A stretch of 48,928 nucleotides of DNA, the filler included, from Jimgerdemannia flammicorona (Eukaryota), in the NCBI GenBank assembly GCA_003990765.1. It is 2 parts of 2 records of this genome, joined end to end, with 100 filler letters (N's around TTAATTAATTAA, not from the genome) between each part and the next. Parts side by side here need not be neighbours in the genome. Positions count along the whole stretch, not along the records: positions 1 to 24,414 come from RBNJ01000976.1; 1 more part is not named here. The stretch is one strand, 5' to 3'. This document shows positions 1-47,777 of the stretch, piece after piece. Below the pieces are notes generated by a model. The model did not search any database. It was not told the DNA's origin and worked only from the letters and a program-made list of their open reading frames with translations. The stretch's first letter is position 1, and each line of letters begins with the position of its first letter. Made by a program: the position numbers and the translations under genes.

Positions 1-68
1 TTTTTAATAGTCTCTTGGACTCCGTCTTTATTACCAGTCTATGAATAAGTATACAATAACACCCCCCT

Positions 69-3000
69 CTACCCTATCCCCCTCGGGGGACCCCTCCCTG
101 CCTCTACACATATAAAGACCACCCTCTCACCAATAACTCCAACTCTCCCACCACTCTGACCACAGATTTTCACCACCAAGCGGCGCCTCCGACTCCCCTG
201 CAGCCCCCAACCAAGCCACCAGCCTGTCAAGGTATCCTCCATAAGGCACTGCCACCGTGATAACCGGCTCTCCAAGCTCTGTCGCCTCTCTTCCTCAAAT
301 ACAAATAGCCAGTGACTGGCCAGCCCAACCCAAATAGCCAATGCCCAGCCTAGAGTAATCCACTCCTCCCCTACCCCTCCTATCAATTGATTCCTCAGGT
401 CCTCCCACCTCCCCTGTACATCATCACCCCTATGCCTTACCCCCAAGCGGTCCCCAATGGCCCACCAAAAGTCACCCAACACCTCACACTCCCCAAGCCA
501 ATATTCTGGCATCTGTACAAATCCCCCTTCCAGCCCTACATTATGGTACTCCTCGCAGTCAAAGCAGCCCCCTACAACGAGGTGTCCTGAGCAGAAGTTA
601 AGCATCACATTCCTCCTCAGCATACGCCACCAGACCACCCAGTACTTTGGCGGCATCCAATTTTTCACCGCGGCACTCCAGGTCCAAACCCCCTGCCAGT
701 CCCACTCCTTGCCAATTCTGACTCCTTGCCAACCACTAGGCCACAGATCCTGGCCTGGTCCCCTTTGGCATTCGATTCTATCACCAATGTTGAACTCCAG
801 CAAAGGCATGCCTCCCAGAAGAATGCCATCCCATCTCCACTTCACCGGGCCCCAAGCCCTCTCCCCCTCATCCCCTTGCCAGCGGATACCAATGCGGTGT
901 GCCCCCTCAGCTATCCCCCACCAGAAACCTTTATAATGCAGTTGCCCAGTGTTCTGAAGCCCAACTAATGAAAGAAGATCACCTGTCAAGCCTCTTGGTG
1001 ATGTCCACCTCTCCCATACCTTCTGCAGCAAGGGAACCCAGCCCCCTCCATGCAACTCCACTGTCCTCCTGAGCCACCATGCCCTCAAGCCATGTAGTCT
1101 TTTGGGGAAGTCCACCAGCCCAAGACCACCTCTCGCCACCGGTAGGGACAGCATTTCCCAACCAATCTGACTCTGTCTGCCAGCCCAAATCCATCCCTTG
1201 GCCACCTTCATCAATCGCCTCACCACCCAGGCTGGGAAGTCCAGATGATAAGCCAAATACCACAGTTTCGGCAGCCAGTATATATTCAAAATCAAGATCC
1301 TTCCTGCTAGAGAGAAGTGTCTTCCCCCCCAACCCCGCAGGACCTCCTCCCAAATTCCAATCCTCTGCACCCACCACAGCCTGGGCAGAACAGATCCATA
1401 GACTGACAAATATATGCCCAAGTACCGCACTGCCTCTCCGGTGGGGACAATTGTTCCAATAACCTCTCTGCTCACCAGTCCATTGCCCAGTACCATTGTT
1501 TCACACTTGTGCCAATTCAGCTTTGCCCCAGAGTTCTCCTCATACCACTCCACTGTCTTCTTGAGCTCCTCGACATCCGCAGGTACTCTCAAACCAACCA
1601 CCATGTCATCTGCAAAGGCTCCAACTTTCCAGCCAATTCCATAGATAGAAAGCCCCACAATCCTCCTCCGAATTCGGTCCATTAGAGGCTCCAAGGAAAG
1701 TGCATACAAAATGGGGGACAGTGGGTCCCCCTGGGGCACTCCCCTACCCAGAGGGAATGCTACCCCTCTATGTCCATTACACACGAGCGCAGCCCTACTC
1801 CTTTTCAGTAGGCTGATCATTGCCGCCCGAAATGGGACCGGAACTCCAATCCTATCCAACACTTTTGCCAGCCAGACTCGCTGCACCCGGTCATAAGCCT
1901 TCTCCTGGTCCAAGAAGACAAGACACCCATCCAGTCCACAGGCTCGAGCACCTTCAATAACGCCATGTACCCAGGCCGTGCCATCTCGAATAAGCCGACC
2001 CCCTATGAAGCCCCTCTGCTCAACACCCACAATTTGCTGGGCTGCCTTCTGCAACCTTGCGACCACCACCTTAGTCACCAGCTTTCTGTCCATATCTAGC
2101 AACATTATCTGCTGCCAGTTCTTCCAATCCTCTCGCCTTCCCTTGTTCTTATAAAGCAGCATCACCAGCCTAAGATCCTGCTCCCCCACCCATCTCCCTG
2201 ACTGCAATATAGTGTCACACAGTGCTGTCAACTCTCCCAGTATGCCCAGAACTCCAACCATTCGCTTCCAGAAGTCCCAGGGGAGGCCATCCTCCCCTGG
2301 CGCCATACCTGAGGTTGTCGTGGCAAGAATCTGGTGGATCTCGTCCTCTTTTACAGGCATCACCAGGTCACCTAATCCCTCAGCTCGTGGAGGGTGCCAA
2401 TCTTCTAATGTTTGTTCAATGGCTATAGCATCCACCCCACTCTCCTCCTCACTCCACAGTCCACTCCATCACGCCTTCAGTGTTCCAAGGATATCCTGTA
2501 CACCATGCACTAATCTACCATCCGAGTCCAGTACCCCTTCCCACCACTGCTGTATCCTTCTCGCTTGAAGTGTCCTCGTAAGAAACTTAGAAGGCCTCTC
2601 CCCTTCCTCCAGCCCCTGCCAACGAAGCCTTGCCACCAGGCCTTGCACCCTTGACTCTTCCTCTTCCCACAGCACCTGTTGTAGTTCCCCAACCTCCATC
2701 TTCACCCTTGTTATTCTCCAATCCTCTTCTCCCTCCACTATTGCCAAACTTGCCCACTCCTCCAGAAGCCTAGCCAATCTAGTAGAAGCCCAATGCACCC
2801 TCTGCCTTCACTACCTCCCAACCACTCTGCCAGCCTCGCTCCAATACATTCTTGCCATCTCTTTCATCCTCCTCCACCGAATCTCAATTGTAGCCCCTTC
2901 TCGCCGCCAATTCACCACCTTCATCTGAATGTCTTTTGTCCACTCCTCCCACCGGGACTTGTCATCCAACAAGGAGGAATTCAGGCACCAATGTCCAGGC

Positions 3001-3752
3001 CCATCACCACTACCCCCAAAACACCCCTGTCCCAAAAGGCCCCAGTGATCTGACCACGGACACCATTCTACCTCCAGCCCCTTCCAAACATCTCGGCCCC
3101 AACAGTCAGCCATCAGAATCCAGTCAATCCTTGTCCCCAGACCTCCAGCCCAATGCGTATATACCCTCCGATCCCCCCAGTACTTCCTACCAGCATCCAC
3201 CATTGCTCCTAGCCTTTTGACCTCCTCCCACATCGCCAGCCCCCCACTCCTATTCTCAGCACCCTGTCCTCCATCAGTTCTATCCAGCTGTACATCCTGA
3301 ACCATATTGAAATCTCCTCCAAGTATATCCAACCTGGCTTCAGCAAGGGTCCCACTCTCCAGGAGACCTTTCACCCAATCCACACATTTCCCCTGCACAG
3401 CAGGGCAGTAATAGGAGCCAACTGTAACTGGCTCCCATCCTGCACGAATCCACTCACCCCAGACCAGTCTCTCCCCCCAGCTCCTCACATCCTGTATCTC
3501 CCCTCTGCCTTTCTGAACCAGAATCCCAACCTTGCTGTTCCAAATTGCCATGCCACCCCATTCCTTCGTCCATTCCATCCTATCAGAATCATCCTCGTAC
3601 CTGACATCCTGCAAGAGGAAGAGATCAGCCTCCAATCCCTTCAACCAAAGAAAAATGTTCCTGCATCTAACTGCGCCCTGAAGCCCATTCACGTTCAAAG
3701 AAAAAATGTTGGTTGTACTGTTCATAATGAAATATGGTTTGTTCGCAATCAA
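69..3752 (-). pseudogene. LINE ORF2 (APE endonuclease - reverse transcriptase - C-terminal Cys/His motif), single frame with 3 premature stops
   Basis: APE motifs SLNVNGL, LLQD, GGDFN, RIDW, SDH. RT motifs APGEDG, LDQEKAYD, GVPQGDPLSP, FADD, YLGI. C-terminal CFDC..EYWLGEC. ORFs 2811-3752, 2469-2798 and 69-2435 are in one frame, and the stops (TAG, TGA, TGA) are explicable as CAG/CGA decay. Confidence 0.95.
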
Positions 3753-3755
3753 TCT

Positions 3756-4307
3756 CTACTGCTCTATGCCCATCTCCTCCTGTGCCATGTCCAGATTATG
3801 TTCAGCCATCACCTCCTCTGCTTCAGCCCTCTGAGCCTCTAGTCCAGCCAACAGCTCATTCATCTCCTCATCAGCCTTCTCCTCAAACTCCTCCCTGTAC
3901 TCAATACAAGCCTCCTGCCAAAGCTGCAACCCATGACGCCTGTTCCAACAGTATTCAGCCTTCTCCCCAGCGACAACTGCCAACTCTGCCTCCCTCTCCT
4001 TGTCCACCTCATACCCTTCCTCCTCCAGATACACCACGAGAATTTCCGCCTTCAGTGCCATCGCCACTCCTTCCCCCTGCAAAATTCTTGCCCAGTGCTC
4101 ATCACCCATTCCATGCAAGTCCACCTCCCCCAGCTCTTCTGCTGCCAGGTTATTCATCATCCGGCACATCCAAAGTAGGTTCCCCACCTCCTTCCCACCA
4201 GGGGTCGCCGGCCACCCTCCGTCCAGCATCGTGGTGTCAGCTCCAGCACTCATGTCCTCATCCCACACCTCTGGGACATCCACCAGTTCCTCCTCCCCAA
4301 CCGCCAC
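3756..4307 (-). pseudogene. LINE ORF1 C-terminal acidic/helical part
   Basis: 183-aa ORF directly upstream of ORF2. Homologous to 34485-35078 and 6883-7523. Confidence 0.85.
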
Positions 4308-4308
4308 T

Positions 4309-8999: not shown

Positions 9000-9619
9000 T
9001 GCATCCCTAATAGTTCCATATCTTCCACACAATTCTCACTCCAAAATCTGGCAACATTATACTAAGATAGGAGATGATGTTATTTATAACTATTGCAGGT
9101 AAAAAATTAAGAAGTACCTATTGATATAACTGATACTTTTGTTTGACACATATATTTGTTTGACATACACATGATACTGTTTCATCTACCCCCATAAACT
9201 GCACCAGCCAGAAGTTCAAAATACTTGGTGGTATGACTTTAAACATATATTGACACATAAAAGACAAATACTCTGACAAAATCAAAAAGAACACAAAGAT
9301 AAATAAAATTGACATCTAAGCTGTAGTGGGTACATTTATCCAAATTGCCTCACTATTTCTGTACCAATAACTTCATTTAATTAAAAATATTTAGCCATAC
9401 TCTTTAGCAGAATTTCGAAATTAGCTCATTCACTGGATTGTATATACAGACCAGCCATTTACAACTATTGAGAGTGATCAATTACATAGTATCTTTGGCC
9501 TCCTCAAGTATGATTTATATTTGCCAAGTACTAATACTATTTGCAAAGATGTCCTGGAGGCCTATAGGAAGGAGCATGACAATCTCCACCAGATACTTCA
9601 GATAAAATAAGAGCAGTAC

Positions 9620-10023
9620 TGTAACACTTTAGCATAGTTTATTTCTTTTCTCTGTTTTTCTTGAATATTCTATAACCTTCCAGCACTTTCTGTATACTTA
9701 GAAATCCCCTTCTTGGTGCCGAGTATTAACTAGTACTTATTTGGCTAGTCATGGAATATTCTGGAAACTTGTAGAACTTTATTTGTCATCATTTGTCATC
9801 TTTGCTGAGAACTTTCCTCTTGGTATTTTCTTTTGATTTCTCAGATCCTTCCAGATCCTTCCTTCAGATCTTATATAAATATCTCCTTTGTTCTCATAAA
9901 TAAAGTCTCAGAATATTTTCTCTCAGAAATCCTTTGAGAATACTTGAATCCTTAGTATCTCTTCGAGCTACTTAGGACCACCAGAACTAGTCGCTTCCTC
10001 ATTTAGAAACTAGAACTATTACA
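9620..10023 (+). repeat. 5' LTR of Gypsy-1
   Basis: TGTAAC...ATTACA, colinear without indels with 21016-21419. Contains TATAAAT and AATAAA at ~9874-9904. Confidence 0.97.
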
Positions 10024-10025
10024 CT

Positions 10026-10037
10026 TGGTAGTAGTGG
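10026..10037 (+). promoter_or_regulatory. Primer-binding site, tRNA-iMet-like (TGGTAGTAGTGG)
   Basis: TGG starts 2 nt after the LTR and resembles the TGGTAGCAG-type iMet PBS with one C>T change. The tRNA identity is inferred. Confidence 0.65.
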
Positions 10038-11114
10038 TTAAGTTACACCTAGCCTTATCAAGACACCTCTCAAGATATCAGTCACAATACTATGGAGGAC
10101 AATGGGTGGAACTCTTCATACAGTACCTATGGTCCAGGCAATATCTCATACAATCAGCAAGAAGAAGAGGAACAGCAAAACCCTACTCAGTCAAATGGGG
10201 CCATCAAGAGTCTTTTGCAGACTGCATTAGCTCAGATTGCTCAACTTCAAGAATGCATAGAAAGAAAGGAAAGCAAGGCCCCTGTTCATACCTCTGCACC
10301 TCTACCAATATCAATATACCCAACAGCAGTCACTATCAAGCCTCAGAAGCCTGACACTTTTGATGGTCAAAGAGGAGAACTGTCTACCAATGCCTGGCTT
10401 TTCCAATTGGAGTAATATGAAGAACTGACCAATTTGGAAGAAGCAACACTAGTCCAATTCGCCGCCACACTTCTCCAAGGGAATGCTGCAATCTGGTGGC
10501 AAAACCATGTCCAGAATACCAGATTTACTGGCTGGATCAGGACCTGGAATGAATTCTCTGATGCTGTTTAAGGCCAATTCAAACCAGTCAACAGCACCAA
10601 GGCCACATGAGACTGTCTGGCAAATGTCAAACAACTCAAGTCTGTGTAAGCATACAATGCACAATTCTTGTCAATCCTACTAGAATTACTACATGTCACT
10701 GAAGACAAGAAGGTTGACAAGTACATCCGAGGCCTGAAAGATCAAACCTGAGTTCATGTCGAACTAGAAGAACCCAGGGACCTAGATACAGCAATGAAGA
10801 TTGCTGATAGGTTTGATGTCATCACTTATGGTCACTGCTTCGAACAGAAGAGACTGCCTTTCAACAACAACCACAAAAGGGAGGAACCCAAAGTCAGAAC
10901 TGTTGGACCTGCCCCCATGGATCTAGACACCATTGACAAGAACAAGAAAGGCAAGCTTACACCCAAGGAAAAGGAGTGCCTTAAGAAGGCTGGAGCCTGC
11001 TTCTTTTGCCATCAGCCTGGTCACATTGCAACTAAATGTCCCAAGAAAACTGCCGAACCAAAGAGGATCCTAGTCCTGTCCAAAGACACTCAAGGTCAAT
11101 CAGTTGAACAAGAA

Positions 11115-11531
11115 GTCATACTCAATTTCATGTGAGTCAACCCCAAGGCCCAGATCCCTTAAGCATAGTCAGAAGGAGCCATTGGTTTGGACCTTCAAGC
11201 AGTACAATAAGTCACTATTCCTGCACATGAAAGAAGGCTCATTCCAACTGGCCTTTCAGTCGAAATCCCCAAGGAACATTATGTAAGGATTGTACCAAGA
11301 TCTGGCCTCAGTTGCAAGCACTCATTGGATGTTGGTGCTGGAGTCATTGACCCTGACTTCCAAGGTAAAATGTAAGTCCTACTAGTCAACCACAAGAACC
11401 AACCATATACTGTCAATGAAGGAGACAGAATTGCACAGCTCATTCTGGAGCGTGCCACCCTAACAGTCATCAAAGAAGTCACCAAGCTGTCTTCAACCAA
11501 GTGAGATCAGAAAGGCTTTGGCAGCACTGAC
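11115..11531 (+). pseudogene. dut: Trimeric-type dUTPase domain inside the Gypsy-1 polyprotein
   Basis: Hand translation in the gag frame shows all five motifs: AIGLDL, VPRSGL, GAGVIDPDFQG, GDRIAQL, *DQKGFGSTD. Not visible in the ORF track because of stops. Confidence 0.95.
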
Positions 11532-14500
11532 AAAGTTGCAAGCATAGTCGAGAACTGAGTCAATTCAATGCTCATTTTCAAAGGTCTAGTCAAGGGACAA
11601 GAACTAGATGTTCTTATAGACAGTAGAGCTGTTGGGAACTTCATCAACAAGAACCTCATCAACAAGCTCAAGATTCTTACCAAACTAGCCAGCAAGAATG
11701 GTGGAGTTGTCACTGCAGATGGCACCACCTTACCAATCAACTCAATTGCCGCTAAACTTCCAGAAGTACTGGGAACATTTAGATTTCGAGGTAGCACCAC
11801 TAGGAGACCATGACCTGATCCTAGGCAAACCCTGGCTTACATGGCACAACCCTCAGATTGATTGGACTAAGAATGAAGTCACCTTGATTCAGGATGGAGC
11901 CAACATTACCATCAAGCCAGACAAGACTCAGATGAGAACCCCAATCGCTACCCTTTCAGCAATTCAGTTCAAGAAGGCCCTCAAGAAAGCTATCTGTGCC
12001 TTTGTGGCACTAATTGGACCAAAGAAAGAAGACAAGAAGCTATCAATTAGTGTAAGCATCAAGTTACTGCTGAACAAGTACAAGGATGTCTTTCTGGACA
12101 AACTACCTGGTCTACTACCTTCAAGAGACCATGACCACGAAATCAAGTTGGTACCTGATGCAGCTATATCTAAGAAGAAAATGTACCACATGTCTCTACT
12201 CAAAATTGAAGCAGTCAAGAAGGAACTCAATAAACTCATCAAGCAAGGAGCCATTCAGCCAAGCAAGTCACCCTTTGGTTCCCCAGTCCTATTTGTCAAG
12301 AAAAAGGATGATACTCTGTAAATGTGCATAGACTACTGAGCACTCAACAAGATCACAGTCAAGAACCATTACCCGCTACTACTCATAGATCAAATCTTTG
12401 ATACTCTCAAAAATGCAAAGTACTTCACCAAGATTGATCTCACCTCTGGGTATCACCAAATTTGAATCAAGCCAGAAGACATACCCAAGACTGCCTTTAT
12501 GACACCCTTTGGACTCTATGAATTTCTAGTTATGGCCTTTGGTCTCACCAATGCACCAGCAATCTTTCAAGATCTCATACAAACTGTCTTCAAGGATCAG
12601 CTCTATATCTTTGTACTTGTATACATTGATGACATCCTGATCTTCAGTAGCATTGAAGAAGAACACCTTAAGCATATTGAACAAGTCCTCAAGATTCTCT
12701 GTGAGAACAAGCTCTATGCAAAGCTCAAGAAATGTGAATTTTTCAAGGATCAAGTTGAATACCTTGGACACATTGTATCAGCCAAAGTAATTCAAGTAGA
12801 CCCAAGAAAAATACAAGCCATTGAACAGTGGCCTGTACCAGCAAACCTCACTGAACTCAGGTCCTTCCTTGATCTGGCTGGATACTACCATTGATTTGTC
12901 AAGAACTTCTCTGGCATTGCAGAATCTTTAACAAACCTCCTGCAAAAGGAACCCAACTCTGATCTCTATGTCCCCTACATCTGGGATGCTTTCTGTCAAC
13001 AAGCTTTTCAAGAACTCAAGAACTACCTGATCCATGCACCTGTCCTGAGAAACATGGACCCAAACTTGAAGTTCACAGTTACTATAGATGTATCTAACTT
13101 TGCCATTGGTGCAGTCATTTCTCAAGATGATGGTCAAGGACACTGACCTATTGCCTTTGAGTCAAGAAAATTGTCCCCAGCAGAACAAAAGCTGGCTACT
13201 CATGAAAAGGAACTTCTGGCAATCATGCATACCCTTAAGACCTGGCGATACTATCTAGAAGGAATTGAGTTCAACATAATCACTGATTACAGATCTCTTC
13301 AGTACATCAACACTCAACCAACCCTTTCTTGCCAACAAGCCAAGTGGAGCCAACTACTTCAGACCTTTACCCCAAACATCATCTACAAGCCTGGCAAAAC
13401 TCTAGTTGTATCAGATGCACTTTCAAGAAGACCTGACCTTACTGCAATTTTACAAGTCACTGTGGTACCTGAATTCCTCAATCAGATCAAGAAGGCATAT
13501 GAACAAGACCCTCTAGTTCTACAAAGGAATACTAAGGAATTTAAGAAAAAGTACACTATCAAGGACAACCTCATATACTATCAAGACAAGTATATATTCC
13601 TGCCAACCCTGAACTATGGTACAAGATTCTTCATGAACACCATGATTCCCCACTAGCTGGTTACCTTGGAACTGAGAAGACCATCAAGAATATCTAATGA
13701 GACTACTACTGGCCAAACATGCTCAAGGAAATCAAGGAGTATGTCCAAAGCTGTGATCTTTGCCAAAGAAATAAGTCAAGCAATCAAGCACCTGCTGGTC
13801 TTCTACAACCCTTGTCAATTCCAACCAAGAAGTTCAAACAAGTCACAATGGACTTCATTGTACAACTCCCACGAACCAAAACAGGCGATGATGCTATTGT
13901 TGTATTTGTAGACTGTCTCACCAAGATTATAATTGCTGAGCCAACCACAACCAATGCCACTGCCCCAGAAATTGCAAGAATCTTCTTCAAGACTGTCTTC
14001 TGCCATTATGGACTTCTCCAAGTAATTATCAGCAACCACAATCCCAACTTCACAAGTCACTTCTGGCAAGCACTCTTCAAGACCCTTGGAACCCAAATTG
14101 CTATGTCTACTGCCTTCCATCCTCAAACTGATGGACAGACAGAGCGAATGAACAGAATACTTGATCAAATGCTCAGAAACTATGTGTCTTATGAGCAAGA
14201 TGATTGGGACCACTATCTGACCTATGCTGAGTTTGCCTACAACAATACCAACCAATCATCAACTGGCCTTTTCCCATTTCAGCTACTTTACAGTCAAAAC
14301 CCTGAGACCCCTACAAGTCTAGTCTCATTCCAGCAATCCAGTTACACACAAGTCCCCAGGGCCCAGAACCTTATTGATAAAATGGATTCTCTTCTCAAGA
14401 TCGCCACTACAAACCTACAAAAGGCTCAGCAACATCAAGTTAAGTATGCAGATAAGAAGCAGTGAGATGTCATATACAACATTGGTAATATGGTTCTACT

Positions 14501-14747
14501 CAAAGCCGACAACATTAAGGCTCAATCTCAAGTCAACTGCCAGTCAGCCAAATTCCAGCCCAAGTACCTTGGACCCTTTGAAATTACCAAGCAAGTCTCT
14601 ACCTGGTCTTACCACCTCAACTTGCCAACAACCATGCATATACACCCAGTATTCCATGTGTCACAACTCAAGGCCTGGAACCAGTGACCTCCATATCCTG
14701 GCTGAATTCTGACACCATCAGTATCAGTCATAGTTGAAGACCACATT

Positions 14748-14902
14748 GAGTATGAAGTTGAGAAAATCTTAGACAAGTATGTAAGTCTGATACTATTCGC
14801 ACAGAATACCTAGTCAAGTGGATGGGTTACCCTGAATATGGTGCTACCTGGGAATCTACTGCCAATCTCAAGAACTCCCAAGACCTCATACAAGAGTTTG
14901 AG
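14748..14902 (+). pseudogene. Integrase C-terminal chromodomain
   Basis: EYEVEKILDK...EYLVKWMGYPEYGATWESTANLKN, with one frameshift. Confidence 0.92.
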
Positions 14903-15203
14903 TAAAAAGAAACTCATTGACTGCCCATGAGGTTCTCTTCTTAGATAGTAGATGACCTACTGTACTGATCAGGCACATTATGCATTGGGGCTCTCTAAGG
15001 GATACAGCATCAGAAACAAGAGATATAGGAAAACTCTATAAATCCTACAATCAATGAGGTTCAAACCAGTTCTCATCCAATCAAGATGATACTTTTTTTT
15101 TTTTTTTTTTTTATAGTCACTTGGACTCCTTTATTACGGAACTATCTAATAAAACAAGACCCTATCTGATAACTACTACAAATATAACTATAAAGAGGGC
15201 CTA

Positions 15204-18200
15204 TCAGCCAACTTCTTCTTTCCACTGCACCCCCTTCTCACCAAGCACTAGGTGCCCTTGACTTTTCTGGACAATATCTAGCACCTTTCACATAGCTCCC
15301 AACTGGTGCCTCTTCCCCTGATACCACCACCCTTGCACCACTTCCAGAAGCAGCCCCTTCCACCACTTCATCAATTCACCAATCTCCATCCAAGGATCCT
15401 TCTCAAACACCCATCTCCAATGCACTGCCATCAGGACCCAGATGCCAATGATCTGGCCTAGGCCCCCCCAAATGTCCCCAATCTCTCCCACCAGTTGCCG
15501 CTTGACCACCTGACAGGTGGGGCCCCCTACATGCTCACTTTCGCCACTCCAGTAGCTTTCCAACATCTGCCAAAATCCCTCCACCCCTGGGCATGCTGCC
15601 ATGACATGCTCTGGCGTCTGCACCACACCCCCATCCAGCTCACAGCACCACTCTCATACCCTCACACCTTCAGCCTCTATCCATCCTGTCCTGTACCTCA
15701 GCATGACATTCCTCCACAAAAATCTCCACCATACCACCCAGAACTTAGGTGGTACAATCTTGAGCAATGAGGTCCCCCATCCCCAAACCAGGCCCCACTC
15801 CCAATCCTCCCCAAACACAGCCTTCTGCCAACCAACTGGCCATCTCTCAAGTGGACCCCTCCAGATCTATTCCATCACCCCAGACAGAGAGTATTCTGTC
15901 AACTGGTGGCCACCAATATGAATATCACTAAGACACCACCATCTCTGTTCCATGTTCTCCTCATCACCCAGCTCTGGACCTGTGAGGCCCATTGCCAGCC
16001 AAGCCTTCACTATGCCCCACCAGAACCCCTGGTACCGCAATCTGCTAACTCTCCAACCTGCAGCAACCCACGTATATTCTTCCGAACCTCATCATGGGGG
16101 CAAAACCTGACTTCCCAATTGTCTATAGCCAGTTTGCCCCAACCATCCACCCCCAATTCTGCCAATCGACAACTCCACCAACTCCGAAGCACCTTCAGCC
16201 ACCTCCTAAAATCCACTAGCCCCAATCCACCATCTACTGTGCACATCACTACCATCTCCCAACTGATCTGTGGTCTTCTTCCTTGCCACAGCCATCCTTC
16301 CACTACCTTCTTCAGTTTCTGTACCACCCAACTGGGAAAGTCCAAATGATATCCCAGGTACCACAGCTTCAGTAGCCAATATACATTCAGAACTACAATC
16401 CTCTCCACCAAAGAGAAGCCCCTCCCTGACCAGCCCACCAAGGTATTCTCCCACTTCTGTATCATTCCACTCTACCACTCCTTTGGCAAAACTGTTCCAT
16501 ATACTGAGAACCAGATACCCAGATATCAGACTACCTCTCCTGTACGTACCAGTTGACCAAAATGTCCATGGTCCCCCAGCCCAGCTCCCAGTTCCATAGT
16601 TTCACACTTGCCCCAATTCAGTTTCGCCCCTGCCAGCCTCTCATACTGCCCCACTCCTTCCTGCAGGTTTGTCACATCCACCATACAGCCTAACCCTACT
16701 ACCATATCATCAGCAAAAGCCCCCAGCTTCCAGACCACCTCCCCCATCTTCAGCCCAGTGAGCCTTTCTCTCAGCTATGCCAACAAAGGCTCCAAGGATA
16801 GGATGTAGAGTAAGGGTGAGAGAGGATCCCCCTATGGCACGCCTCTCCCCAAGACAAACTCTGGGCCACACCACCCATTCATTAGTACTGCAGCCCAACA
16901 GCCTCGCACCAGGCCCATCAGTTTTCGAGCCTCCACCACACCGAATCCTGTCTTCTGCAGAACTGCCTCCAGATAGTCCCACCTCACTCTATCGTATGCC
17001 TTTTCCTGATCCAAGAACACCATTCTCCCATCTACTTGCCAGCTTCGACAGCCCTCCAAGACATTTTGCACCCAGGCTGTGCTGTCTTGGATCTGTCTCC
17101 CCTTCACAAATCCTCGCTGTTCTTCACCCACCAATTGGCCAATCCAACGTTGCATCCTCCCCACCAGGATCTTGGATACCAACTTCCTGTCCACATTCAG
17201 TAGCATAATGGGCCACTAGTTCCGCCACATATGGCGGTCCCCTTTCTCCTTATAGAGCAGAGAGACTAACCCTAAGGAGCCATTGCCGATCCAGCAGCCT
17301 TCACCTATCACAAAGTTTGCCATTTCCACCAGCTAACTCCCAAACTTGACTTGGAATTCCTTCCAGAACTCCCAAGGCAGTCCATCCTCTCCTGGTGATG
17401 AACCAGCCTGTACTTTCTGCAGAACCTCCAGAACCTCTTCAAGGGCCACCATGCCCATTATCGCCCCGCCTATCTCTGGCACCACTACCACTGGCCAGCT
17501 ACTAACAAGAGTGTCATTATCCTCTGGTTGAGACACTCCCCCCACCAGTCCTCCTCCATCTTGCCATAGAGCATGCCATTGCCCTGAAATCTCTCCAAGT
17601 ATATCAGTAATACCAGTAACCTCAACACCATCCTCCTGCAATACAGAAGCCCAGCTGTGCTGCACTCTCCTGGCCTTCAAGATCCGGACAAATACTTAGT
17701 GGGTTGCTCTCCTTCCTCCAACTGTCTTGCCCACAATCTTGCCAGTAGCCCATCTACTACCCTATCTTCTGCTGCCTTAAAATCTAACCACAGTTCAGCC
17801 ACCTCCTTAGCCAACTGAGAGCATCTCTCTCCAGATAAATTCTCTCCCTCCAGGAATTTCAGCCACCAACATAGACCCTGTTCAACCCCCCTTTCTCTAT
17901 CCTTCTGCTCCTTGCCAGCTACCTCTCCCACATCCCGCCAGTAAGCACCTGCCAAATGTTTGAATTTCCCCCACCACTGTGCTATCGACTATTCACTGTC
18001 TTTCCACCATGCCACTTCCTGCCTTGCGATTTCCACAAATTGGTCCCTTTCCACCTGCCTTTTGAGTAGTGCCACATTGAGTTGCCATCTGCCTCCACCT
18101 CCACTGACCATCTGGAATCTCCCACACACCTCAACTCCCCAGTGATCTGACCAAGGACACCACCATACTCCTGTTGAATCCAATACATTGCCCCAGCATT

Positions 18201-18834
18201 CTGCCACCAGGATCCAATCAATCCTCATTCCAACCAAGTCTTCACCAACTGAGTGCAACCTAGTGAATGGCCCTGGTCTTTCCCCTTGATGCTGTCAAAC
18301 TCCATCAACCAATCCCATATCCCTCTCTACCTGGAGCCACCATGAGAGCCCAGTAGATACAGCCACACCAACTCCACCATCAGATCTATCTAATGTTCTA
18401 TCACAAATCATGTTAAAGTCCCCCCCCAGAATGTCCAACCCCACCTCATCCCGGTCTCCCCAAGCCAGCCAGCCTTCCACCCATTGGTTCCGCTCTCTAC
18501 CCACTGCTGGCAGATAAGCAGAGCTGACCACTAGTCCATCGCCAGCTCCACCTTTCAACCTCCCCCAGACCAATCGATCACTATATACTGCAACTTCCAA
18601 CAGCTCACCTCTCCCCAAGCTAACTAAAATGCCCACCTGTTCATTCCAACCTATACTTCCATACCATTCCCTACCCCAATCCTCATAATCCTGCTCTCCA
18701 TATGCCCGAATGTCCTGTAGCAATACAACATCATATCTCCTGATCTTCAGCCAATGAAATAGATGCCTTCTCTTCACTCTATCACGCAAACCATTGACAT
18801 TTAATGATAAGATATATAGACTATTCATCATCAT
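15204..18834 (-). pseudogene. LINE B ORF2 (APE-RT), disrupted
   Basis: SLNVNGL, LLQD, GGDFN, RIDW, SDH, SPGEDG, LDQEKAYD, GAFADD and QTPEHVMAAC across the listed ORF fragments. Confidence 0.93.
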
Positions 18835-18846
18835 AAGTAAAAATAT

Positions 18847-20690
18847 TTAAAGCTCCACTGGAATCACCACCACCTTCTCTGCCTGACCACAGATTATTGC
18901 CTTCCATTCCTCACAGATTGCCCTCCAGATACGGGCTCCATTGACTCCACTGCAGAATATATCTACTCGCTCAGATGCCACCTTCCTGATGTCAGCCATA
19001 TGATCCTCATCTACCTCATATCCTTCATCATCCAGAAGTGCAGCCACCATCACTGTCACCAACTTCAGTCCTTGCAATGCTACATTGAGGAACCCTTCCC
19101 AGGCCTCTTGAGATCCATTAAATACATCCACTTCCTTGATATCCTCCTCTGCCAGTTTCTCGAGCACTGCCTGATACCAGTCATCAGCTGTCATCACCAT
19201 GGGCCCAGGGGTGGTGGGCCTTGGGGTCCTGCTCAGTTCCTGTAACATCTCTCAGTCCACCAACACATCAGAGGCCACATCTACCAGATCATCCTCCTCT
19301 GCACCCTTCTCCAGCCTCACCACTTCGCCAGCCTCTGGACACTCCCAGTGAACATTTGCTGCCCCTGCCATCCAGACATCCTCCAACTGAGTCTCTGGCA
19401 CCACCTCAGCAACCTCCTCGAAACCCCCTACATTCGTCTCCTCCTTATCAGCCTACTTCCCCTTTACTGGTGCATGAGCTGAATCCTCCACTCCCCCCAG
19501 TTGTGAATAGGATACCTCAACTGTCTCCACCTCTTCCATCTGACTCTTGACCATCTCTGCCCTTTCTTCTCCTCCACTTTCGAGCCCTGGAGGACTGTCT
19601 GTAAGCGCTCCCAGTTTGCCCTCTGCCACTTCTTCCTCTTTCCATCTGTTGGAATCCAGATCCAGTCCTTGGCAAACTCCTCCCATCTCCTCTTCCACAC
19701 TTCCTTTGCAGCCTCTCTCTCCTCCAGGGCAATCAGCAGTTCCTCCTCCTCCTGTTCCGAACCCTTCTGTCTCCACACTTTACACTTCTGCCCTTGGACA
19801 TGGATCACCTCTGGCCAGTCCCTCCCTAGCCCTGTAGCCTCCTTGCCTTCCAGCCTCACCATTATCTCACAGTTGCCATTCCTCAGCTTGGTCCCCTCCC
19901 AGAACATGAACCCAAAGTCAACCATCTCACCGAAGCCCCCCAGTGCCTCTGCTACAATCCCTTTTGTCTCCTGTCTTCTCAATGTCAGCAGCCCCTCAAT
20001 CACCAGATGTATGGCACGCAGGTCCCACCTCAGGCACCTCACTATGCCCACCTTGATATTCTTGATGACCAGCCCTTTCTCCAAAGCTTTTGCCATATCC
20101 TCCTCCTCCACAAATCCTATCTCTACTGCCTCTGCTGATGGGATGAACTTCAGCAACTCTGCCCCAGCAACCTCCTCTCCCACCAGCCGCAAGACCTCCC
20201 TAGCAGACATCCCCAGCCCCAGGAAATTCGCTGAGATAGCCCACATCAACACTGACTTGTGAAAGAAGGGATGTACCACCAGTTCACCAGAGCCTACCAC
20301 CATCATAGCCTTCTTCTTATTCTCAGATACCCCAGCAGTCACCCCAGCCACAGGCCCAGCCCCAGGAATGCCAGTCCCAGCCACACCACTTCTGGACCCC
20401 TGGCCTCTGGCAGGCACCTGACCAATCACCTGACCAGTCACCTGGCTGGTCACCTGACTTCTACCCCTGTCAACACTACGTCCCCCCTGCCCTACTCCCA
20501 TGGGCCTAGTAGCCACCCTCCTGCCCCCCATCACTGTATACCAACTTTTGATACCAGCCTGCCTTCCTTGACCACCTGCTCCTCCTGCTCCAGCACCAGT
20601 CCCAGCCACTGCTGCAAAACTCTTGGGGAGGCCCAGGCCAGGCCTCCTTCTCTCCAAGTGCTCAGAGCTTGATGAACCCTGGGTCGCCAT
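18847..20690 (-). pseudogene. LINE B ORF1 (Gly-rich N-terminus, probable RRM-like core, acidic C-terminus)
   Basis: 408-aa ORF 19464-20690 plus 18847-19248. SFAAVA motif and VEIGF..RCLRWD..GEMVDFGF block shared with family A ORF1. The RRM call is inferred from position and pattern. Confidence 0.85.
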
Positions 20691-21002
20691 TTGATGAAAA
20701 CTCCATGGAATTTGGCAAAATTTGTTGTAGACTGTTACTAGACTCCTGCCGCATCTTGTACACCAGAATAGATGACGGGAAAACTTGAAAATGTGTTGCT
20801 TGTCACAAAAAGATGTCTGTGTGACTTAGTTCACTCTAAATGGTTTGAGCAAAAGGAGTCGATCAAGATGATACTTTGGTCCTTGCCTTATACAAGGATG
20901 GCCAATCCTTGCCAATGAGTCAATATATTTAATTTGAAGTTTCTTTTAGTCTTACTGTTTGTTATGTATAACTTTGAGAATTCAATAAGGATATTGATTC
21001 TT

Positions 21003-21015
21003 AAGGAGGGGGAGA
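21003..21015 (+). promoter_or_regulatory. Polypurine tract of Gypsy-1
   Basis: AAGGAGGGGGAGA directly abuts the 3' LTR. Confidence 0.92.
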
Positions 21016-21419
21016 TGTAATACTTTAGTATAGTTTATTTCTTTTCTCTGTCTTTCTTAAATATTCTATAACCTTCCAGCACTTTCCACATACTTAGAAA
21101 TCCCCTTCTTGGCACTGAGCATTAACTAGTACTTATTTAGCTAGTCACAGAATATCCTGGAAACTTGTAGAACTTTATTTGTCATCATTTATCATCTTTG
21201 CTGAGAACTTTCCTCTTGGCATTTTCTTTTGATTTCTCAGATCCTTCCAGATCCTTCCTTCAGATCTTGTATAAATATCCCCTTTGTTCTTATGAATAAA
21301 GTCTCAGAATATTTTCTCTCAGAAATCCTTTGAGAATACTTGAATTCTTAGTATCTCTTTGAGCTACTTAGGACTACCAGAACTAGTCACTTCCTCATTT
21401 AGAAACTAGAACCATTACA
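21016..21419 (+). repeat. 3' LTR of Gypsy-1
   Basis: TGTAAT...ATTACA followed by the AGTAC TSD. Confidence 0.97.
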
Positions 21420-22258
21420 AGTACCATGACTTTTACAAGCTGAATTATATATATATATTTATAAAGAGCTCACCAATTTAACCTCACATTCAATAAGCAG
21501 AATTTGGTAGGCAAAATTTCATTTACAATCAATACATGGACATCCCCCAATGCAATTTTGTTTCTAGACATTACTGATCATTAGATAGACCTCAATTGGC
21601 AGCTTAAATCTCTCACCCTTGACTTCATCAAACTTGCTGGCCCTCATTCTGGAGACAATATTGTAGATGCTTTTATTAGTTATATCCAAGAGCTTGGAAT
21701 TACAACCAAGGTAAAAAAGGAGAGCTTACTATTAGGTCAGCATTTTGAGAGAGGTCCTAAAATAAAACAGATTTTATTGGTTATTTATTTTCACATAAAT
21801 TTGTCAACCAAATATTTCAAGTACAGATTTTGGTCATTATGATGGACAATACTACAAATAACTCAACATTTTTCCAAGTTTTAGTAGCCAGCCTTAAATA
21901 GGAAAATGTGGCCTTCAGTGCAGAAAGCTGCCATGTATGATGTCAGGCCCATATACTGAACCTTACTGTTCAGGACTATCTTATGTACATAGACAAAACA
22001 TCCAAGAGAGGAGGGGCCCTGAGTATAATTTCCAAGCTGTGCAAACTGGTTGTATTGGTCTGATTGTCCCCACAATAACAAGACAAATTTACTGCACAGT
22101 GTAGAGCAATCAGTTTAGCCCTGAAAGAGCTTATATTGGATGTCTGTATACATTGGAACTCAACATTTACAATGATCCAGCATGCGCTGAAGTTTGTTAT
22201 GGTATGCATCCTTTTTTTCTTTGGTTGGCTGAAGCAACTTATTTCAGATAATTGAAGA

Positions 22259-25412: not shown

Positions 25413-25928
25413 TTAGTGCTCCGAACGAGTCAATCCGGATGGGATTCGGATGGATTTGAATCAACCATTGTTTTGATTTCCAAATTGAACAATTAAATGT
25501 TTACATCAATAACTCGATGAATAATCATCCAAATTTGATGATCTTGGTGTCATTTGAAAGCCCTTAATAAGGCTTTTCTAATGATATCAAGAACATTAAA
25601 ATCAGATTACACATTGCCAAGATATTAAGGAAAACGTTCTATTTGACGAAATTTCCAAAATCGGCGATTCAGACGGTTTCCTTCATAACTCAGCAACGCA
25701 TGATTGGATTTCAATATTCTTGGTATCATTAGATAGGCCTTATTAAGGGCTTTCAAATGACACCAAGATCATCAAATTTGGATGATTATTCATTGAGTTA
25801 TTGATGTAAACATTTAATTATCTAATTTGGAAATCAAAACAATAGTTGATTCGAATCCATCCGGATGGGATTCAATCCAAATCAATCCGAATCCAATCCA
25901 GATTAAATTGACTCGTTAGGAGCACTAA
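25413..25928. mobile_element. Palindromic MITE (~515 bp) with two internal hairpin modules
   Basis: TIR TTAGTGCTCC(G/T)AACGAGTCAAT, with arms pairing over ~240 bp and subterminal AATCC/GGATT repeats. TSD not resolved. Confidence 0.9.
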
Positions 25929-30664: not shown

Positions 30665-30739
<75 letters not shown>

Positions 30740-30798
30740 GTCCCTTGGACTCCATCTTTATTACCAGTCTATGAATAAGTATACAATATCACCACCCA

Positions 30799-33700
30799 CT
30801 ATCCGATCCCCATCGGGTGGTCCCACCCCACCTCATCACATATAAAGACCACTCTCTCACCAACAACTCCAACTCTCCCACCACTCTGAGCACAGATTTT
30901 CACCACCAAGCGGCACCTCCAACCCCCCTGCAGCCCCCAACCAAGCCACCAGCCTGTCAAGGTATCCTCCATAAGGAACTGCCACCTTGCTAACCGGCTC
31001 CCCAAGCTCGGTCGCTTCTTCTCCTCAAATACAAATAGCCAGTGGTCAGCCAGCCCAACCCAAATAGCCAATACCCAGCCTAGAGTAATCCACTCTTCCC
31101 CAACCCCTCCTATCAATTGATCCCGCAGGTCCTCCCACCTCCCCCGTACATCATCACCCCTACGTCTTACCCCCAAGCGGTCCCCAACGACCTGCCAAAA
31201 GTCTCCCAACACCTCACACTCCCCTAGCCAATGTTCCGGCATCTGTACCAATTCCCCTTCCTGTCCGACATTATGGCACTCCTCACAGTCAAAGCAGCCC
31301 CCTACAACAAGGTGTCCTGAGTGGAAGTTAAGCATCACATTCCTCCTCAGTACACACCACCAGACTATCCAGTACTTCGGCGGCATCCAATTTTTCACTG
31401 CGGCACTCCAGGTCCAAACCCCATGCCAGTCCCACTCCTCACCAATTCCAACTCCTTGCCAACCACTAGGCCACAGATCCTGGCCAGGACCCCTTTGGCA
31501 TTCGATGCCATCACTAATGTTGAACTCCAGTAAAGGCATGCCTCCCAGAAGAATGCTATCCCATCTCCACATTGCCGGGTCCCAAGCCCTCTCCCCCTCA
31601 TCCCCTTGCCAGCGAATACCAATGTAGTGTGCCCCCTCGGCTATTCCCCACCAGAAGCCTTTATATCTCAGTTGCGCAGTGTTCTGAAGCCCAACTAATG
31701 AAAGAAGATCACCAGTCAAGCCTCTAGGCGATGTCCGCCTCTCCCATATCTTCTGCAGCAGGGGGACCCAGCCCCTCCATGTAACTCCACTGCCCTCCTC
31801 AGCCACCAAACCCTCAAGTAGTGTAGTCATTTGGGGAAGTCCACCAGCCCAAGACCACCTCTTGCCACCAGTAGTGACAAAGTCTCCCAACCAATCTGAC
31901 TCCATCTGCCAGCCCAAATCCATCCCTTGGCCACCTTCATCAATCTCTTCACTACCCAAGCTGGGAAGTCCAGATGATAGGCCAAATACCACAGCTTTGG
32001 CAGCCAGTATACATTCAAAATCGAGATCCTTCCTGCCAGAGAGAAGTGTCAACCCCCCCAACCCTGTAGGTCCTCCTCCCAAATTCCAATCCTCTGCTCC
32101 CACCACAGCCTGGACAAAACAGACCCATAGACCGACAAATAGATGCCCAAGTACCACACTGCCTCTCCGGTGGGGACAATTGTTCCAATAACTTCTCTGC
32201 CCACTAAGCCATTGCCCAGCACTATTGTTTCGCACTTGTGCCAATTCAGCTTTGCCCCAGAGTTCTCCTCATACCACTCCACTGTCTTCCAGAGCTTCTC
32301 GACATCCGCAGTCACTCCCAAACCAACCACCATGTCGTCTGCAAAGGCTCCAACCTTCCAGCCAATGCCATAGATAGAGAGCCCCATGATCTTCCACCAA
32401 ATTCTGTCCATCAGAGGTTCCAAGGAAAGAGCATACAAAATGGGAGACAGTGGGTCCCCCTGGGGCACTCCCCTACCCAGAGGGAAAGCCACCCCTCGAT
32501 GCCCATTGCACACGAGTGCAGCCCTACTCCTTTCCAGTAGGCTGACCATTGCCAACTGAAATGGGCCCGGAACTCCAATTCTATCTAATACTTTCGCCAG
32601 CCAGACTCGCCACACCCGGTTATAAGCCTTCTCTTGATCCAAGAAGACAAGACGCCCATCTAGTCCACAGGCTCGAGCACCTTCAATAACTCTATATACC
32701 CAGGCTATACCATCTCTAATAAGCCGACCCCCTATGAAGCCCCTCTGCTCAACACCCACAATTTGCTGGACTACCTTCTGTAGCCTTGCGACCACCACCT
32801 TAGTCACTAACTTCCTGTCCATATCTAGCAACATTATCGGCCACCAGTTCTTCCAATCCTCTCACCTTCCCTTGTTCTTATAAAGCAGCATCACCAGCCC
32901 AAGGTCTTACTCCCCCACCCATCTCCCTGACTACAATATAGAGTCACACAGTGCTGTCAACTCCCCCAATATGCCCGGGACTCTAACCATTTGCTTCCAG
33001 AAGTCCCAAGGGAGGCCATCCTCCCCAGGCGCCATACCCGAGGCTGTCGTGGCAAGAATCTGGTGGATCTCATCCTCCTTTACAGGCATCACCAGGTCAC
33101 CTAGTCTCTCAGCTTGTGGTAGGTACCAATCTTCTAATGTTTGGTCAATGGCTATAGCATCTACCCCACCCTCCTTCTCACTCTACAATCTACTCCATCG
33201 CGCCTTCAGCATTCCAAGGATGTCCTGTACACCATGCACTAGTACATCATCCGAGCCAAGTACCCCTTCCCACCACTGCTGTACTCTTCTTGCTCAAAGT
33301 GTCCTTGTGAGAAACTTGGAAGGCCTCTCCCCTTCCTCCAGCCCCTGCCAATGAAGCTGTGCCACCAGGCCTTGCACCCTTGACTCTTCCTCTTCCCGCA
33401 GCACCTGTTGCAGTTCCCCAACCTCCATCTTCACCCTCGTTATTCTCCAATCCTCTTCTCTCTCCACTGCTGCCAGTCTCGCCTACTCCTCCAGGAGCCT
33501 AGCCAATCTAGTAGAAGCCCAATGCACTTTCTGCCTTCACTGCTTCCCAGCCACTCTGCCAGCCTCGCTCCAATATATTCTGGCCATCTCTTTCATCCTC
33601 ATCCACCAAACCCCAATCACGGCCCCTTCCTGCCACCAATTCACCACCTTCAGCTGAATGTCTTTTGCCCACTCCTCCCACTGGGCCTCATCATCCAACA

Positions 33701-34481
33701 AGGAGGAATTTAGGTGCCAATGTCCAGGCCCATCCCTACTTCCCCCAAAACACCCCTGTCCCAAGAGGCCCCAGTGATCTGACCATAGACACTATTCTAC
33801 CTCTAACACCTTCCAAACATTGCGGCCCCAACAGTTGGCCATCAGAATCCAGTCAATCCTTGTCCCCAGACCTCCAGCCCAATGTGTATATATCCTCCTG
33901 TCTCCCCAGTACTCCCTACCAGCATCCACCAGTGCTCCTAACCATTCAACCTCCTCCCACATCGCTAACCCCCCACTCCTGCTCTCCGCACCCTGTCCTC
34001 CATCAGTTCTATCCAGCCGTACATCCCAAACCATATTGAAATCTCCTCCAAGCATATCCAACCCAGCTTCAGTAAGGATCCCACTCTCCAGGAGCCCTTT
34101 CACCCAATCCACATACTCCCTCCGTACAGCAGGGCAGTAACAGAAGCCAACAGTGACTGGCTCCCAACCTGCAAGAATCCACTCACCCCAGACCAGTCTC
34201 TCCCCCCAGCTCCTCACATCCTTTATCTCCCCTCTGCCTTTCCAAACCAGAATTCTGACCTTGCTGTTCCAAATTGCCATACCACCCCATTCCTTAATCC
34301 ATTCTATCCTATCAGTATCATCCTTGCACCTGACATCCTGCAAGAGGAAGAGATCAGCCTCCAATCCCTTCAACCAAATAAAAATGTTCCTGTGTCGTAC
34401 CATGCCCCTCAGCCCATTCACATTCAAAGAAAAAATGTTGGTTGTACTGTTTATAGTAAAATATGGTTTATTCTCAATCAA
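30799..34481 (-). pseudogene. LINE A3 ORF2 (APE-RT-Cys/His), disrupted
   Basis: Same motifs as 69-3752, including FADD and CFDCEEC..EHWLGEC. Confidence 0.94.
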
Positions 34482-34484
34482 TTC

Positions 34485-45651: not shown

Positions 45652-45874
45652 CAGTGATAGTCAAAAGTGTACCAATGTTTAGTTATTATTAATATTTTAA
45701 TTATATTATACCTCCAATCTAAATTCTATTTTACCAAAATTTTAAACATTAATAAAATAGTCTTTAAACTTTTGAATAATATGTGTTTTATTATATTTAG
45801 ATAATTATAGACATTAATATAACTATTTTAAGTTAAATTGTCCATTAGTACTATTTTGACCCTTTTCAGTATAT

Positions 45875-45962
<88 letters not shown>

Positions 45963-47383: not shown

Positions 47384-47777
47384 TATAACCTCCTCTCAAG
47401 AGAGTTCTACTGATCAAAGCTGACCAAGGATATCAAAGATTTCATGGTCTTATATAAAATGTACCAAAGGTTCAAAAGCAGTAATAAGCTACTAGCAGGA
47501 CTTTTGCAACCCCTACCTATCTTTAGCTATAACTAAGATCAGATTACTATAGACTTTATTGTCTAGCTCTCTAAGACCAAAGCAGAATAGGATACCATTG
47601 TAGTATTCATAGACTGTCTGAGCAAATAAGTCTATTTTGCACTCACCAAGACTACTGCCATAGCCTCTGAGATTACTGAAAGCTTTCTCAATTAAGTATT
47701 TAGACTATATAGCATATCTAGCACCATTGTATCTAACCATGGTACCAAGTTTACAAGTAACTTCTGGAAGCAGCTAC

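What the first reader, a model, noticed from the sequence alone, without database searches (positions are those of the whole stretch)
10998..11660. Chromovirus with a dUTPase fused in frame between the Gag zinc knuckle and the protease
Seen: CCHC knuckle, ~25-aa linker, complete five-motif dUTPase, then protease, all in one frame from ATG 10092 with no gag-pol frameshift. It is hidden from ORF callers by decay stops. Established: NC-adjacent dUTPase ahead of protease is the betaretrovirus layout (MMTV, M-PMV), and dUTPase is uncommon in Ty3/Gypsy, with a few fungal cases known. Inference: convergent capture producing an NC-dUTPase packaged at Gag stoichiometry to keep uracil out of cDNA. I cannot confirm whether this exact layout is already described.
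Basis: partly seen in the sequence, partly recalled or inferred. Interest (0 to 1): 0.75.

Follow-up and report, generated by a model that had tools for sequence, protein, structure and literature searches.

The report
Dead fungal chromovirus carrying a dUTPase
This is a decayed copy of an abundant Gypsy-type jumping gene whose single protein chain includes a dUTP-destroying enzyme between its RNA-binding zinc knuckle and its protease, a real arrangement whose gene order has been reported before in fungal elements.

Summary
From ATG 10092 one frame gives capsid, CCHC knuckle (10998-11039), a 30-aa linker, a five-motif dUTPase (Pfam E 5e-33) and protease. Twelve decay stops interrupt it, none fixed in the family. 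It lies in a 6.0-kb LTR element (9620-21419, LINE inserted in the 3' UTR) of a family with hundreds of copies. In sister copies the same frame runs on through RT, RNase H, integrase and chromodomain, so the dUTPase has no special 'Gag stoichiometry'. Variants shared between copies show purifying selection on the dUTPase (6 synonymous to 1 replacement transversion). The enzyme is of the eukaryote/large-DNA-virus type, far from retroviral dUTPases and about 40% identical to the host gene, so the betaretrovirus likeness is convergent. It is also only partial: the betaretroviral NC-dUTPase is a frameshift product. Whether NC stays fused here is untested. The order has precedent: PosPlaTy3-3 has a dUTPase at the N-terminus of Pol (Novikova 2010). 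Two more families in this genome and at least six unnamed public protein clusters share the order. This scan already noted the layout on another piece of this genome. Verdict: real, probably once functional, new member of a known kind; interest 0.3.

The parts
9615..9619 (.). 5-bp target-site duplication, left copy (right copy 21420-21424)
9620..10023 (+). 5' LTR, 404 bp, TG...CA
   Evidence: 26 of 404 sites differ from the 3' LTR, all transitions
10026..10037 (+). Primer-binding site for a host tRNA-Met (10 of 12 matches here; 12 of 12 in L066, L072, L099; 17 of 18 in L067)
10092..10094 (+). ATG opening the single gag-pol frame
10338..10853 (+). Capsid (Ty3_capsid / Retrotrans_gag), 5 decay stops
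10998..11039 (+). CCHC zinc knuckle (nucleocapsid)
11040..11129 (+). About 30-aa linker; possible protease site, untested; no slippery heptamer in 53 copies
11130..11534 (+). Trimeric-type dUTPase, five motifs, 6 decay stops
11559..11960 (+). Aspartic protease; active-site codons 11616-11627 altered; frame broken near 11760 (end approximate)
12295..12777 (+). Reverse transcriptase core (RVT_1)
12982..13368 (+). RNase H
13608..14675 (+). Integrase (H2C2, rve, SH3_Tf2-1); frame change near 13588 is private to this copy
14748..14905 (+). Chromodomain, split by a private frameshift at 14777-14798
15093..20861 (-). LINE (endonuclease + RT, poly-A end) inserted in the 3' UTR, with 13-bp duplication at 15080-15092 and 20862-20874
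21003..21015 (+). Polypurine tract
21016..21419 (+). 3' LTR

Best explanation
A dead copy of a high-copy, tRNA-Met-primed Ty3/Gypsy chromovirus with one open reading frame: capsid-NC-dUTPase-protease-RT-RNase H-integrase-chromodomain (shown). An ancestor took up a eukaryote/large-DNA-virus-type dUTPase gene at the gag-pol junction and kept it under purifying selection (shown for selection, inferred for the capture). As part of the polyprotein the dUTPase is carried into the virus-like particle, trimerises after processing, and turns dUTP into dUMP so that RT puts less uracil into the cDNA, as for non-primate lentiviruses in non-dividing cells (inferred from family knowledge). It is made one-for-one with every other domain, not in Gag-specific excess. 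Whether it stays joined to NC or is cut free is about even. After insertion the copy decayed by C-to-T / G-to-A changes and a LINE insertion.
For: Domain order and Pfam scores. LTRs, TSD, PBS, PPT. 942 first-look candidates in the own genome, 40 scored at 92-100% identity. One frame in sisters. Selection on transversions only: in the dUTPase, variants shared by 2 or more of 54 copies are 6 synonymous to 1 replacement against 148:662 sites (binomial p 0.0002), single-copy ones 6:16; all domains 14:4 vs 18:58 (Fisher p 3e-5). Against outside polyprotein P0035 the dUTPase is 55% identical, more than capsid (49%) or protease (41%). 35 of 54 copies still match all five motif cores, and the motif 3 core is kept in 53 of 54. 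Role of retroviral dUTPases: PMC2427051 passages, PMC2864245 section 5.
Against: No activity, expression or particle data; the two runs laid were uninformative. The selection counts are small and shared variants may descend from few events. The host has an intact intron-bearing dUTPase gene, so need is not obvious. Most close RT relatives do without one: 4 of the 120 listed carry PF00692. The donor is unresolved.
Confidence: 0.8

Rival explanations
1. One reading: the mature product is an uncut NC-dUTPase tethered to the genomic RNA, the functional equal of betaretroviral p30, and packaged at Gag level.
For: Short linker in family A, P0217, P0035/P0009, P0094, P0213. A hydrophobic-polar-polar-hydrophobic word follows the knuckle in 8 of 10 dUTPase-less single-ORF relatives but in only 2 of 9 NC-dUTPase proteins within 25 aa, and family A's linker does not match the pattern, as if a cut site were lost.
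Against: That pattern was drawn up after seeing the sequences, so its p-values are circular, and its role as a cut site is my inference. Family A still has a hydrophobic run at the same place. Linker length varies from about 15 to 150 aa among NC-dUTPase elements. Ty3 releases NC by proteolysis (PMC4974528 passages). One frame means no Gag-specific excess.
Confidence: 0.3
2. Gag-only protein is made by a hidden route (splicing, or a shift to a stop before the dUTPase), so the dUTPase is really a low-abundance Pol N-terminal domain, as drawn for PosPlaTy3-3.
For: 91 of 106 knuckle-bearing hits of the Gag search end within 40 aa of the knuckle, so Gag normally ends where this linker lies. Ty3 needs Gag excess (PMC4974528 passages).
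Against: No X-XXY-YYZ slippery heptamer between knuckle and dUTPase in 53 of 53 copies. Single-ORF chromoviruses are common (PMC2864245 section 5). No RNA evidence either way.
Confidence: 0.2
3. The dUTPase is a neutral passenger: a host mRNA piece picked up by template switching and never used.
For: The host dUTPase mRNA has been retrocopied in this genome (intronless copy L098 vs intron-bearing L134), so such pick-ups occur.
Against: Only 39-41% identity to the host enzyme; grouping with it is weakly rejected (p-AU 0.042); purifying selection; in-frame retention in three families whose dUTPases are 38-43% alike.
Confidence: 0.05

Closest known systems
PosPlaTy3-3 of Postia placenta (with PosPlaTy3-4, -5, the Phanerochaete chrysosporium elements and Tuber Tmt1); PMC2864245 section 5 read
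   Same: Fungal Gypsy element with a dUTPase at the amino-terminus of Pol, i.e. gag-dUTPase-protease order; authors infer independent captures and a role in non-dividing cells.
   Different: I could not see Figure 3 or the .DOC supplements, so I do not know whether PosPlaTy3-3 has one frame or two, or a knuckle. No sequence comparison was possible. Host here looks Mucoromycota-like, not basidiomycete. The two 2008 papers are not held.
Betaretroviral NC-dUTPase (MMTV p30, M-PMV); PMC4531489 section 8 read; PMC2238898 passage
   Same: Order NC-dUTPase-protease; dUTPase in frame with and N-terminal to the protease.
   Different: There the dUTPase is in the pro frame and joined to NC by a ribosomal frameshift; here all is one frame. 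Sequence is unrelated beyond the family. Fusion is proven there, not here. No env.
Rotifer Juno/Vesta/TelKA and planarian giant Gypsy elements; PMC5408684 and PMC6431247 passages
   Same: Gypsy-type elements with a dUTPase in the polyprotein.
   Different: dUTPase lies between protease and RT; both papers give that position for fungi too.
Unnamed public polyproteins P0009/P0031/P0035 (one cluster), P0084, P0098, P0110, P0195, P0371, P0448, P0012; and families B and C of this genome
   Same: dUTPase directly before the protease, in most cases in one chain with Gag or a knuckle; P0371 is a full Gag-to-chromodomain chain.
   Different: RT-RNase H only 50-59% identical; dUTPases 35-55% identical and scattered on the tree, except that P0035/P0009 and P0217 group with family A.

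Membership tests
Metaviridae (Ty3/Gypsy) | Two LTRs, PBS after the 5' LTR, PPT before the 3' LTR (ICTV profile PMC7879559, whole text) | tested here: met
Metaviridae (Ty3/Gypsy) | gag (CA, NC) then PR-RT-RH-IN order | tested here: met
Chromovirus | Chromodomain at the C-terminus of integrase | tested here: met
   PF00385 E 9e-13; in frame with integrase in sisters
Chromovirus | RT groups with chromodomain-bearing Gypsy elements | tested here: met
   nests among chromodomain-bearing polyproteins, apart from non-family elements L101/L115 used as outgroup
Named chromovirus clade (Tcn1, Tf1, MarY1 and others) | RT/IN clade with named reference elements | not testable with these tools
   No named fungal reference sequences could be fetched; tRNA-Met priming argues against Tf1-type self-priming
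Trimeric dUTPase (PF00692) | Five conserved motifs | tested here: met
   (35 of 54 copies match all five cores)
Trimeric dUTPase (PF00692) | dUTP hydrolysis and trimer formation | not testable with these tools
   needs an assay; no fold job was run
Betaretroviral NC-dUTPase | Trans-frame product of a gag-pro frameshift | tested here: not met
   one frame in 20 of 21 sister loci; no slippery heptamer
Betaretroviral NC-dUTPase | Retroviral-type dUTPase sequence | tested here: not met
   eukaryotic/large-virus entries 113-125 bits, FIV 58, M-PMV not in the 60 of 83 shown
Betaretroviral NC-dUTPase | NC stays joined to dUTPase in the particle | tested here: inconclusive
   linker-word count
dUTPase-bearing fungal Gypsy elements (PosPlaTy3-3 type) | dUTPase before the protease | tested here: met
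dUTPase-bearing fungal Gypsy elements (PosPlaTy3-3 type) | Common descent with PosPlaTy3-3 | not testable with these tools
   sequence not available; supplements unreadable

The most novel reading that the evidence does not exclude
A widespread but uncatalogued set of single-frame chromoviruses, several in this genome and many in unnamed public assemblies, repeatedly filled the NC-protease junction with different dUTPases and make an uncut NC-dUTPase bound to the packaged RNA: a true functional copy of betaretroviral p30 reached without frameshifting, with the dUTPase swapped as a module among Gypsy and Copia elements.
Probability: 0.2. Interest if true: 0.55.

Novelty: new member of a known kind. 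Interest (0 to 1): 0.3.

Why it matters
It shows that the gag-dUTPase-protease order usually taught as a betaretrovirus mark also occurs, independently, in high-copy fungal-type chromoviruses, and gives the first sign I found of purifying selection on such a retrotransposon dUTPase, whose role the 2010 paper calls unclear. The genome holds thousands of dUTPase-bearing copies (8265 first-look candidates) in at least four Gypsy-type families, a good place to ask why retrotransposons need uracil control. The layout itself is not new, and this copy is dead.

Tried and rejected
One search read the wrong frame for pol (redone). The search for related loci in viral contigs: 7 pattern matches, 0 confirmed. 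RNA: no RNA holder listed; two runs with shares 0.12 and 0.06, RNA status a guess. Laid as contigs they showed no joint near the gag-dUTPase junction and patchy cover, so they say nothing on expression or splicing. A first tRNA pattern found 0 matches; a second found 2, with 2 control matches, and both were tRNA-Met by ARAGORN. Self-priming: the complement of the PBS is not in the LTR. RT_RNaseH search of the own genome returned only distant Gypsy families (30 loci checked of 150 rows, RT 38-51% identical), so no close dUTPase-less sister was found there. The protease stop count was an artefact of an incomplete last codon and was corrected. The 83-row dUTPase tree did not finish its careful search; smaller sets of 36 and 39 rows, dropping mostly unnamed stand-alone proteins and near-duplicates, were used. 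One origin for families A+B+C is neither shown nor rejected (p-AU 0.245); one origin for all 13 dUTPase-before-protease rows p-AU 0.056, 0 of 200 bootstrap trees. A link of family A to Copia dUTPases appeared at weak support and not: not claimed. APOBEC-like editing of cDNA as the cause of decay was rejected: changes are on both strands and separate the two LTRs of one copy. Literature: 7 searches showed no paper describing a single-frame NC-dUTPase-protease chromovirus, but PMIDs 18680913 and 17972080 are not held and Repbase/GyDB/REXdb could not be searched.
Full report
1. Observation. Translating from ATG 10092 with X at stops gives 567 codons with 12 stops. Pfam finds, in that one frame, Ty3_capsid (aa 83-254), zf-CCHC (302-318, under its cut-off), dUTPase (353-479, E 5.1e-33, 114 bits against a cut-off of 22) and a weak gag-asp protease hit (498-546). 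The knuckle is at nt 10998-11039, the five dUTPase motifs at 11178, 11295, 11340, 11421 and 11502, and the protease active-site codons at 11616-11627. The linker is about 30 aa.

2. The element. LTRs of 404 bp lie at 9620-10023 and 21016-21419, with TG...CA ends, a 5-bp target-site duplication and a polypurine tract at 21003-21015. A LINE on the minus strand (15093-20861; endonuclease and RT hits) sits in the 3' UTR between two copies of a 13-bp duplication that occurs once in each of 2 sister copies checked. Without it the element is about 6018 bp; 9 sister copies with both LTRs whole measure 6019-6041 bp. RT, RNase H, integrase and chromodomain follow the protease. The primer-binding site matches the 3' end of a tRNA-Met found twice in the genome: 12 of 12 bases in L066, L072 and L099, 17 of 18 in L067, 10 of 12 here. 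That it is the initiator tRNA rests on recalled features.

3. The family. The dUTPase region has 942 first-look candidates in the own genome; the 40 scored are 92-100% identical, this copy included. Of 29 sister loci, 24 give one uninterrupted frame over the part of capsid-to-protease that they cover and 5 have frame breaks. In 21 longer loci, NC, dUTPase and protease share a frame in 20; of the 12 that reach from capsid to chromodomain, 6 keep one frame throughout and 6 break at scattered places. The window copy's three frame changes (near 11760, 13588 and 14777-14798) are absent from 10 of 10 sisters compared. None of its 12 stops is fixed: each is a stop in 2-21 of 51-54 copies. So the family is a single-frame gag-pol element and this copy is dead. 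Decay is 91% transitions (159,174 of 175,086 pairwise differences among 54 copies), on both strands, highest per site at CpG, then CpA and CpC. All 26 differences between this copy's LTRs are transitions, as are 203 of 212 in 9 sister pairs. A dUTPase does not guard against this kind of change (established enzymology).

4. Was the dUTPase used? Counting transversions only, to avoid the hypermutation, variants shared by two or more of 54 distinct copies (54 kept of 78 loci after removing duplicates) are 6 synonymous to 1 replacement in the dUTPase, against 148:662 sites (binomial p 0.0002); single-copy variants are 6:16. Over capsid, NC, dUTPase and protease the counts are 14:4 shared and 18:58 single (Fisher p 3e-5). 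The numbers are small. Against the outside polyprotein P0035 the dUTPase is 55% identical, the capsid 49%, the protease 41%, RT 60%. 35 of 54 copies match all five motif cores. The domain was under purifying selection while the family was active.

5. Origin. Against solved structures a stop-free family dUTPase scores 113-125 bits with eukaryotic and large-DNA-virus enzymes (organism names of those entries recalled), 58 bits with FIV 1F7D, and M-PMV 3TRL is not among the 60 of 83 shown. The host has an intron-bearing dUTPase gene with intact motifs and an intronless retrocopy; the retrocopy, used as host stand-in, is 39-41% identical to the element's enzyme and groups with Dichotomocladium elegans (99/94), which suggests a Mucoromycota-type fungus. 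Family A groups with unnamed P0217 and P0009 (99/97); joining it to the host gene is weakly rejected (p-AU 0.042). The donor is unresolved.

6. How common is the layout? Twenty stretches chosen from the 150 dUTPase rows showed two further chromovirus-type families with knuckle-dUTPase-protease in one frame: B (15 loci) and C (3 loci), with dUTPases 38-43% and RT cores 58-62% alike among A, B and C. A fourth element has the dUTPase after a protease-like region. Outside, of 22 polyproteins over 993 aa that matched, 9 are Gypsy-type and 13 Copia-type. Gag or knuckle, dUTPase and protease occur in that order in the P0009 cluster, P0084, P0098, P0110, P0195 and P0371, and dUTPase before protease in P0448 and P0012; protease-dUTPase order occurs in P0010, P0013, P0016, P0017, P0021 and P0428, and probably P0019. 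None carries an organism name. Only 4 of the 120 RT relatives listed carry a dUTPase. On the RT tree the dUTPase-before-protease label needs 3 changes and is not clustered beyond shuffles; on the dUTPase tree it needs 6, with one origin not rejected (p-AU 0.056). Repeated capture or swapping is likelier than one event, but not shown.

7. Mechanism. Shown: one polyprotein CA-NC-dUTPase-PR-RT-RH-IN-CHD, selection on the dUTPase. Inferred: the enzyme enters the particle with the polyprotein and lowers dUTP during reverse transcription, as in non-primate lentiviruses, where it matters in non-dividing cells (PMC2427051, passages; the same assumption in PMC2864245 section 5). Whether NC stays attached is open. 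A short hydrophobic word follows the knuckle in 8 of 10 dUTPase-less single-frame relatives but 2 of 9 NC-dUTPase proteins; family A has a different hydrophobic run there; the pattern was drawn up after the fact and its role as a cut site is my inference. A hidden Gag-only route is possible, since 91 of 106 knuckle-bearing hits end within 40 aa of the knuckle, but no slippery heptamer was found in 53 copies.

8. What is known. Novikova et al. 2010 (PMC2864245; section 5 and passages read) report a dUTPase at the amino-terminus of Pol in PosPlaTy3-3, at the carboxyl end in -4 and between protease and RT in -5, and cite Phanerochaete and Tuber cases. Figure 3 and the .DOC supplements could not be seen; they may show whether PosPlaTy3-3 is one frame with gag. 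The two 2008 papers are not held. PMC5408684 and PMC6431247 (passages) place fungal dUTPases between protease and RT. PMC2774666 (passage) already likens betaretroviral dUTPase to that of fungal chromoviruses. PMC3350952 (passages) and the bioRxiv Entomophthora preprint (one passage: dUTPase enriched with retroelement domains) were seen only in part. Seven searches listed no paper on a single-frame NC-dUTPase-protease chromovirus. Earlier notes of this scan describe the same layout on other pieces of this genome.

9. Verdict. Real feature, correctly seen; interpretation partly right. A new member of a known kind, with the single-frame form possibly undescribed. Interest 0.3.

Noticed in passing
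L134 (G000:C33350) and L098:4090-4716 (G000:C6287): The host dUTPase gene has three GT-AG introns and intact motifs; a second, intronless copy 97-99% identical carries changes in motifs 2 and 4: a processed retrocopy.
   Followed up: yes
L085:4220-7120, L086:2-2359, L132: Families B and C carry a shared Cys/His finger (GRCP-x-x-x-MYC...CxxC) between dUTPase and protease; in L132 the same finger lies before the dUTPase, after a protease-like region. Family A lacks it.
   Followed up: partly
L085, L086 dUTPases: Families B and C have altered motifs (RSS in motif 2, GG before motif 3, GFCIAQ for motif 4 in B), which looks like lentiviral dUTPases as I recall them; for B, FIV scored 57 bits against 97 for the best entry.
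   Followed up: partly
P0011, P0014, P0015, P0018, P0020, P0022-P0029: 13 unnamed Copia-type polyproteins carry a dUTPase, at different positions; P0020 shares family A's unusual motif 5 spelling.
   Followed up: partly
window:9620-21419 and sister copies: Strong C-to-T / G-to-A decay on both strands (91% transitions; CpG highest, then CpA, CpC) in a host that looks Mucoromycota-like; methylation decay or a RIP-like process.
   Followed up: partly
window:1-8987, 15093-20861, 30731-36571: Several copies of related LINEs on the minus strand, nested or in tandem (1-4308 is 90% identical to 30731-35037); poly-A ends are followed by a shared end sequence.
   Followed up: no
window:24415-24514: Two N runs; the window joins G000:C976 (1-24414) to other sequence.
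   Followed up: no
window:24515-25082 and 47771-48336; 45650-47385; 25444-25866: Long inverted repeats (568 nt at 89%; about 750-nt arms at 89%; a 194-nt hairpin), suggestive of DNA transposons or MITEs.
   Followed up: no
window:26352-26442: 91-nt inverted fragment 86-87% like the start of this element's LTR.
   Followed up: no
L099 and L085: Nested insertions: a whole family A copy inside the integrase of another chromovirus (L099); a family B copy inside a family A dUTPase (L085).
   Followed up: no
window:9950-10170: Contigs of runs X1 and X2 pile up at the LTR end and start of gag, far above the rest; RNA status is a guess and contig depth cannot rank parts, so unexplained.
   Followed up: no
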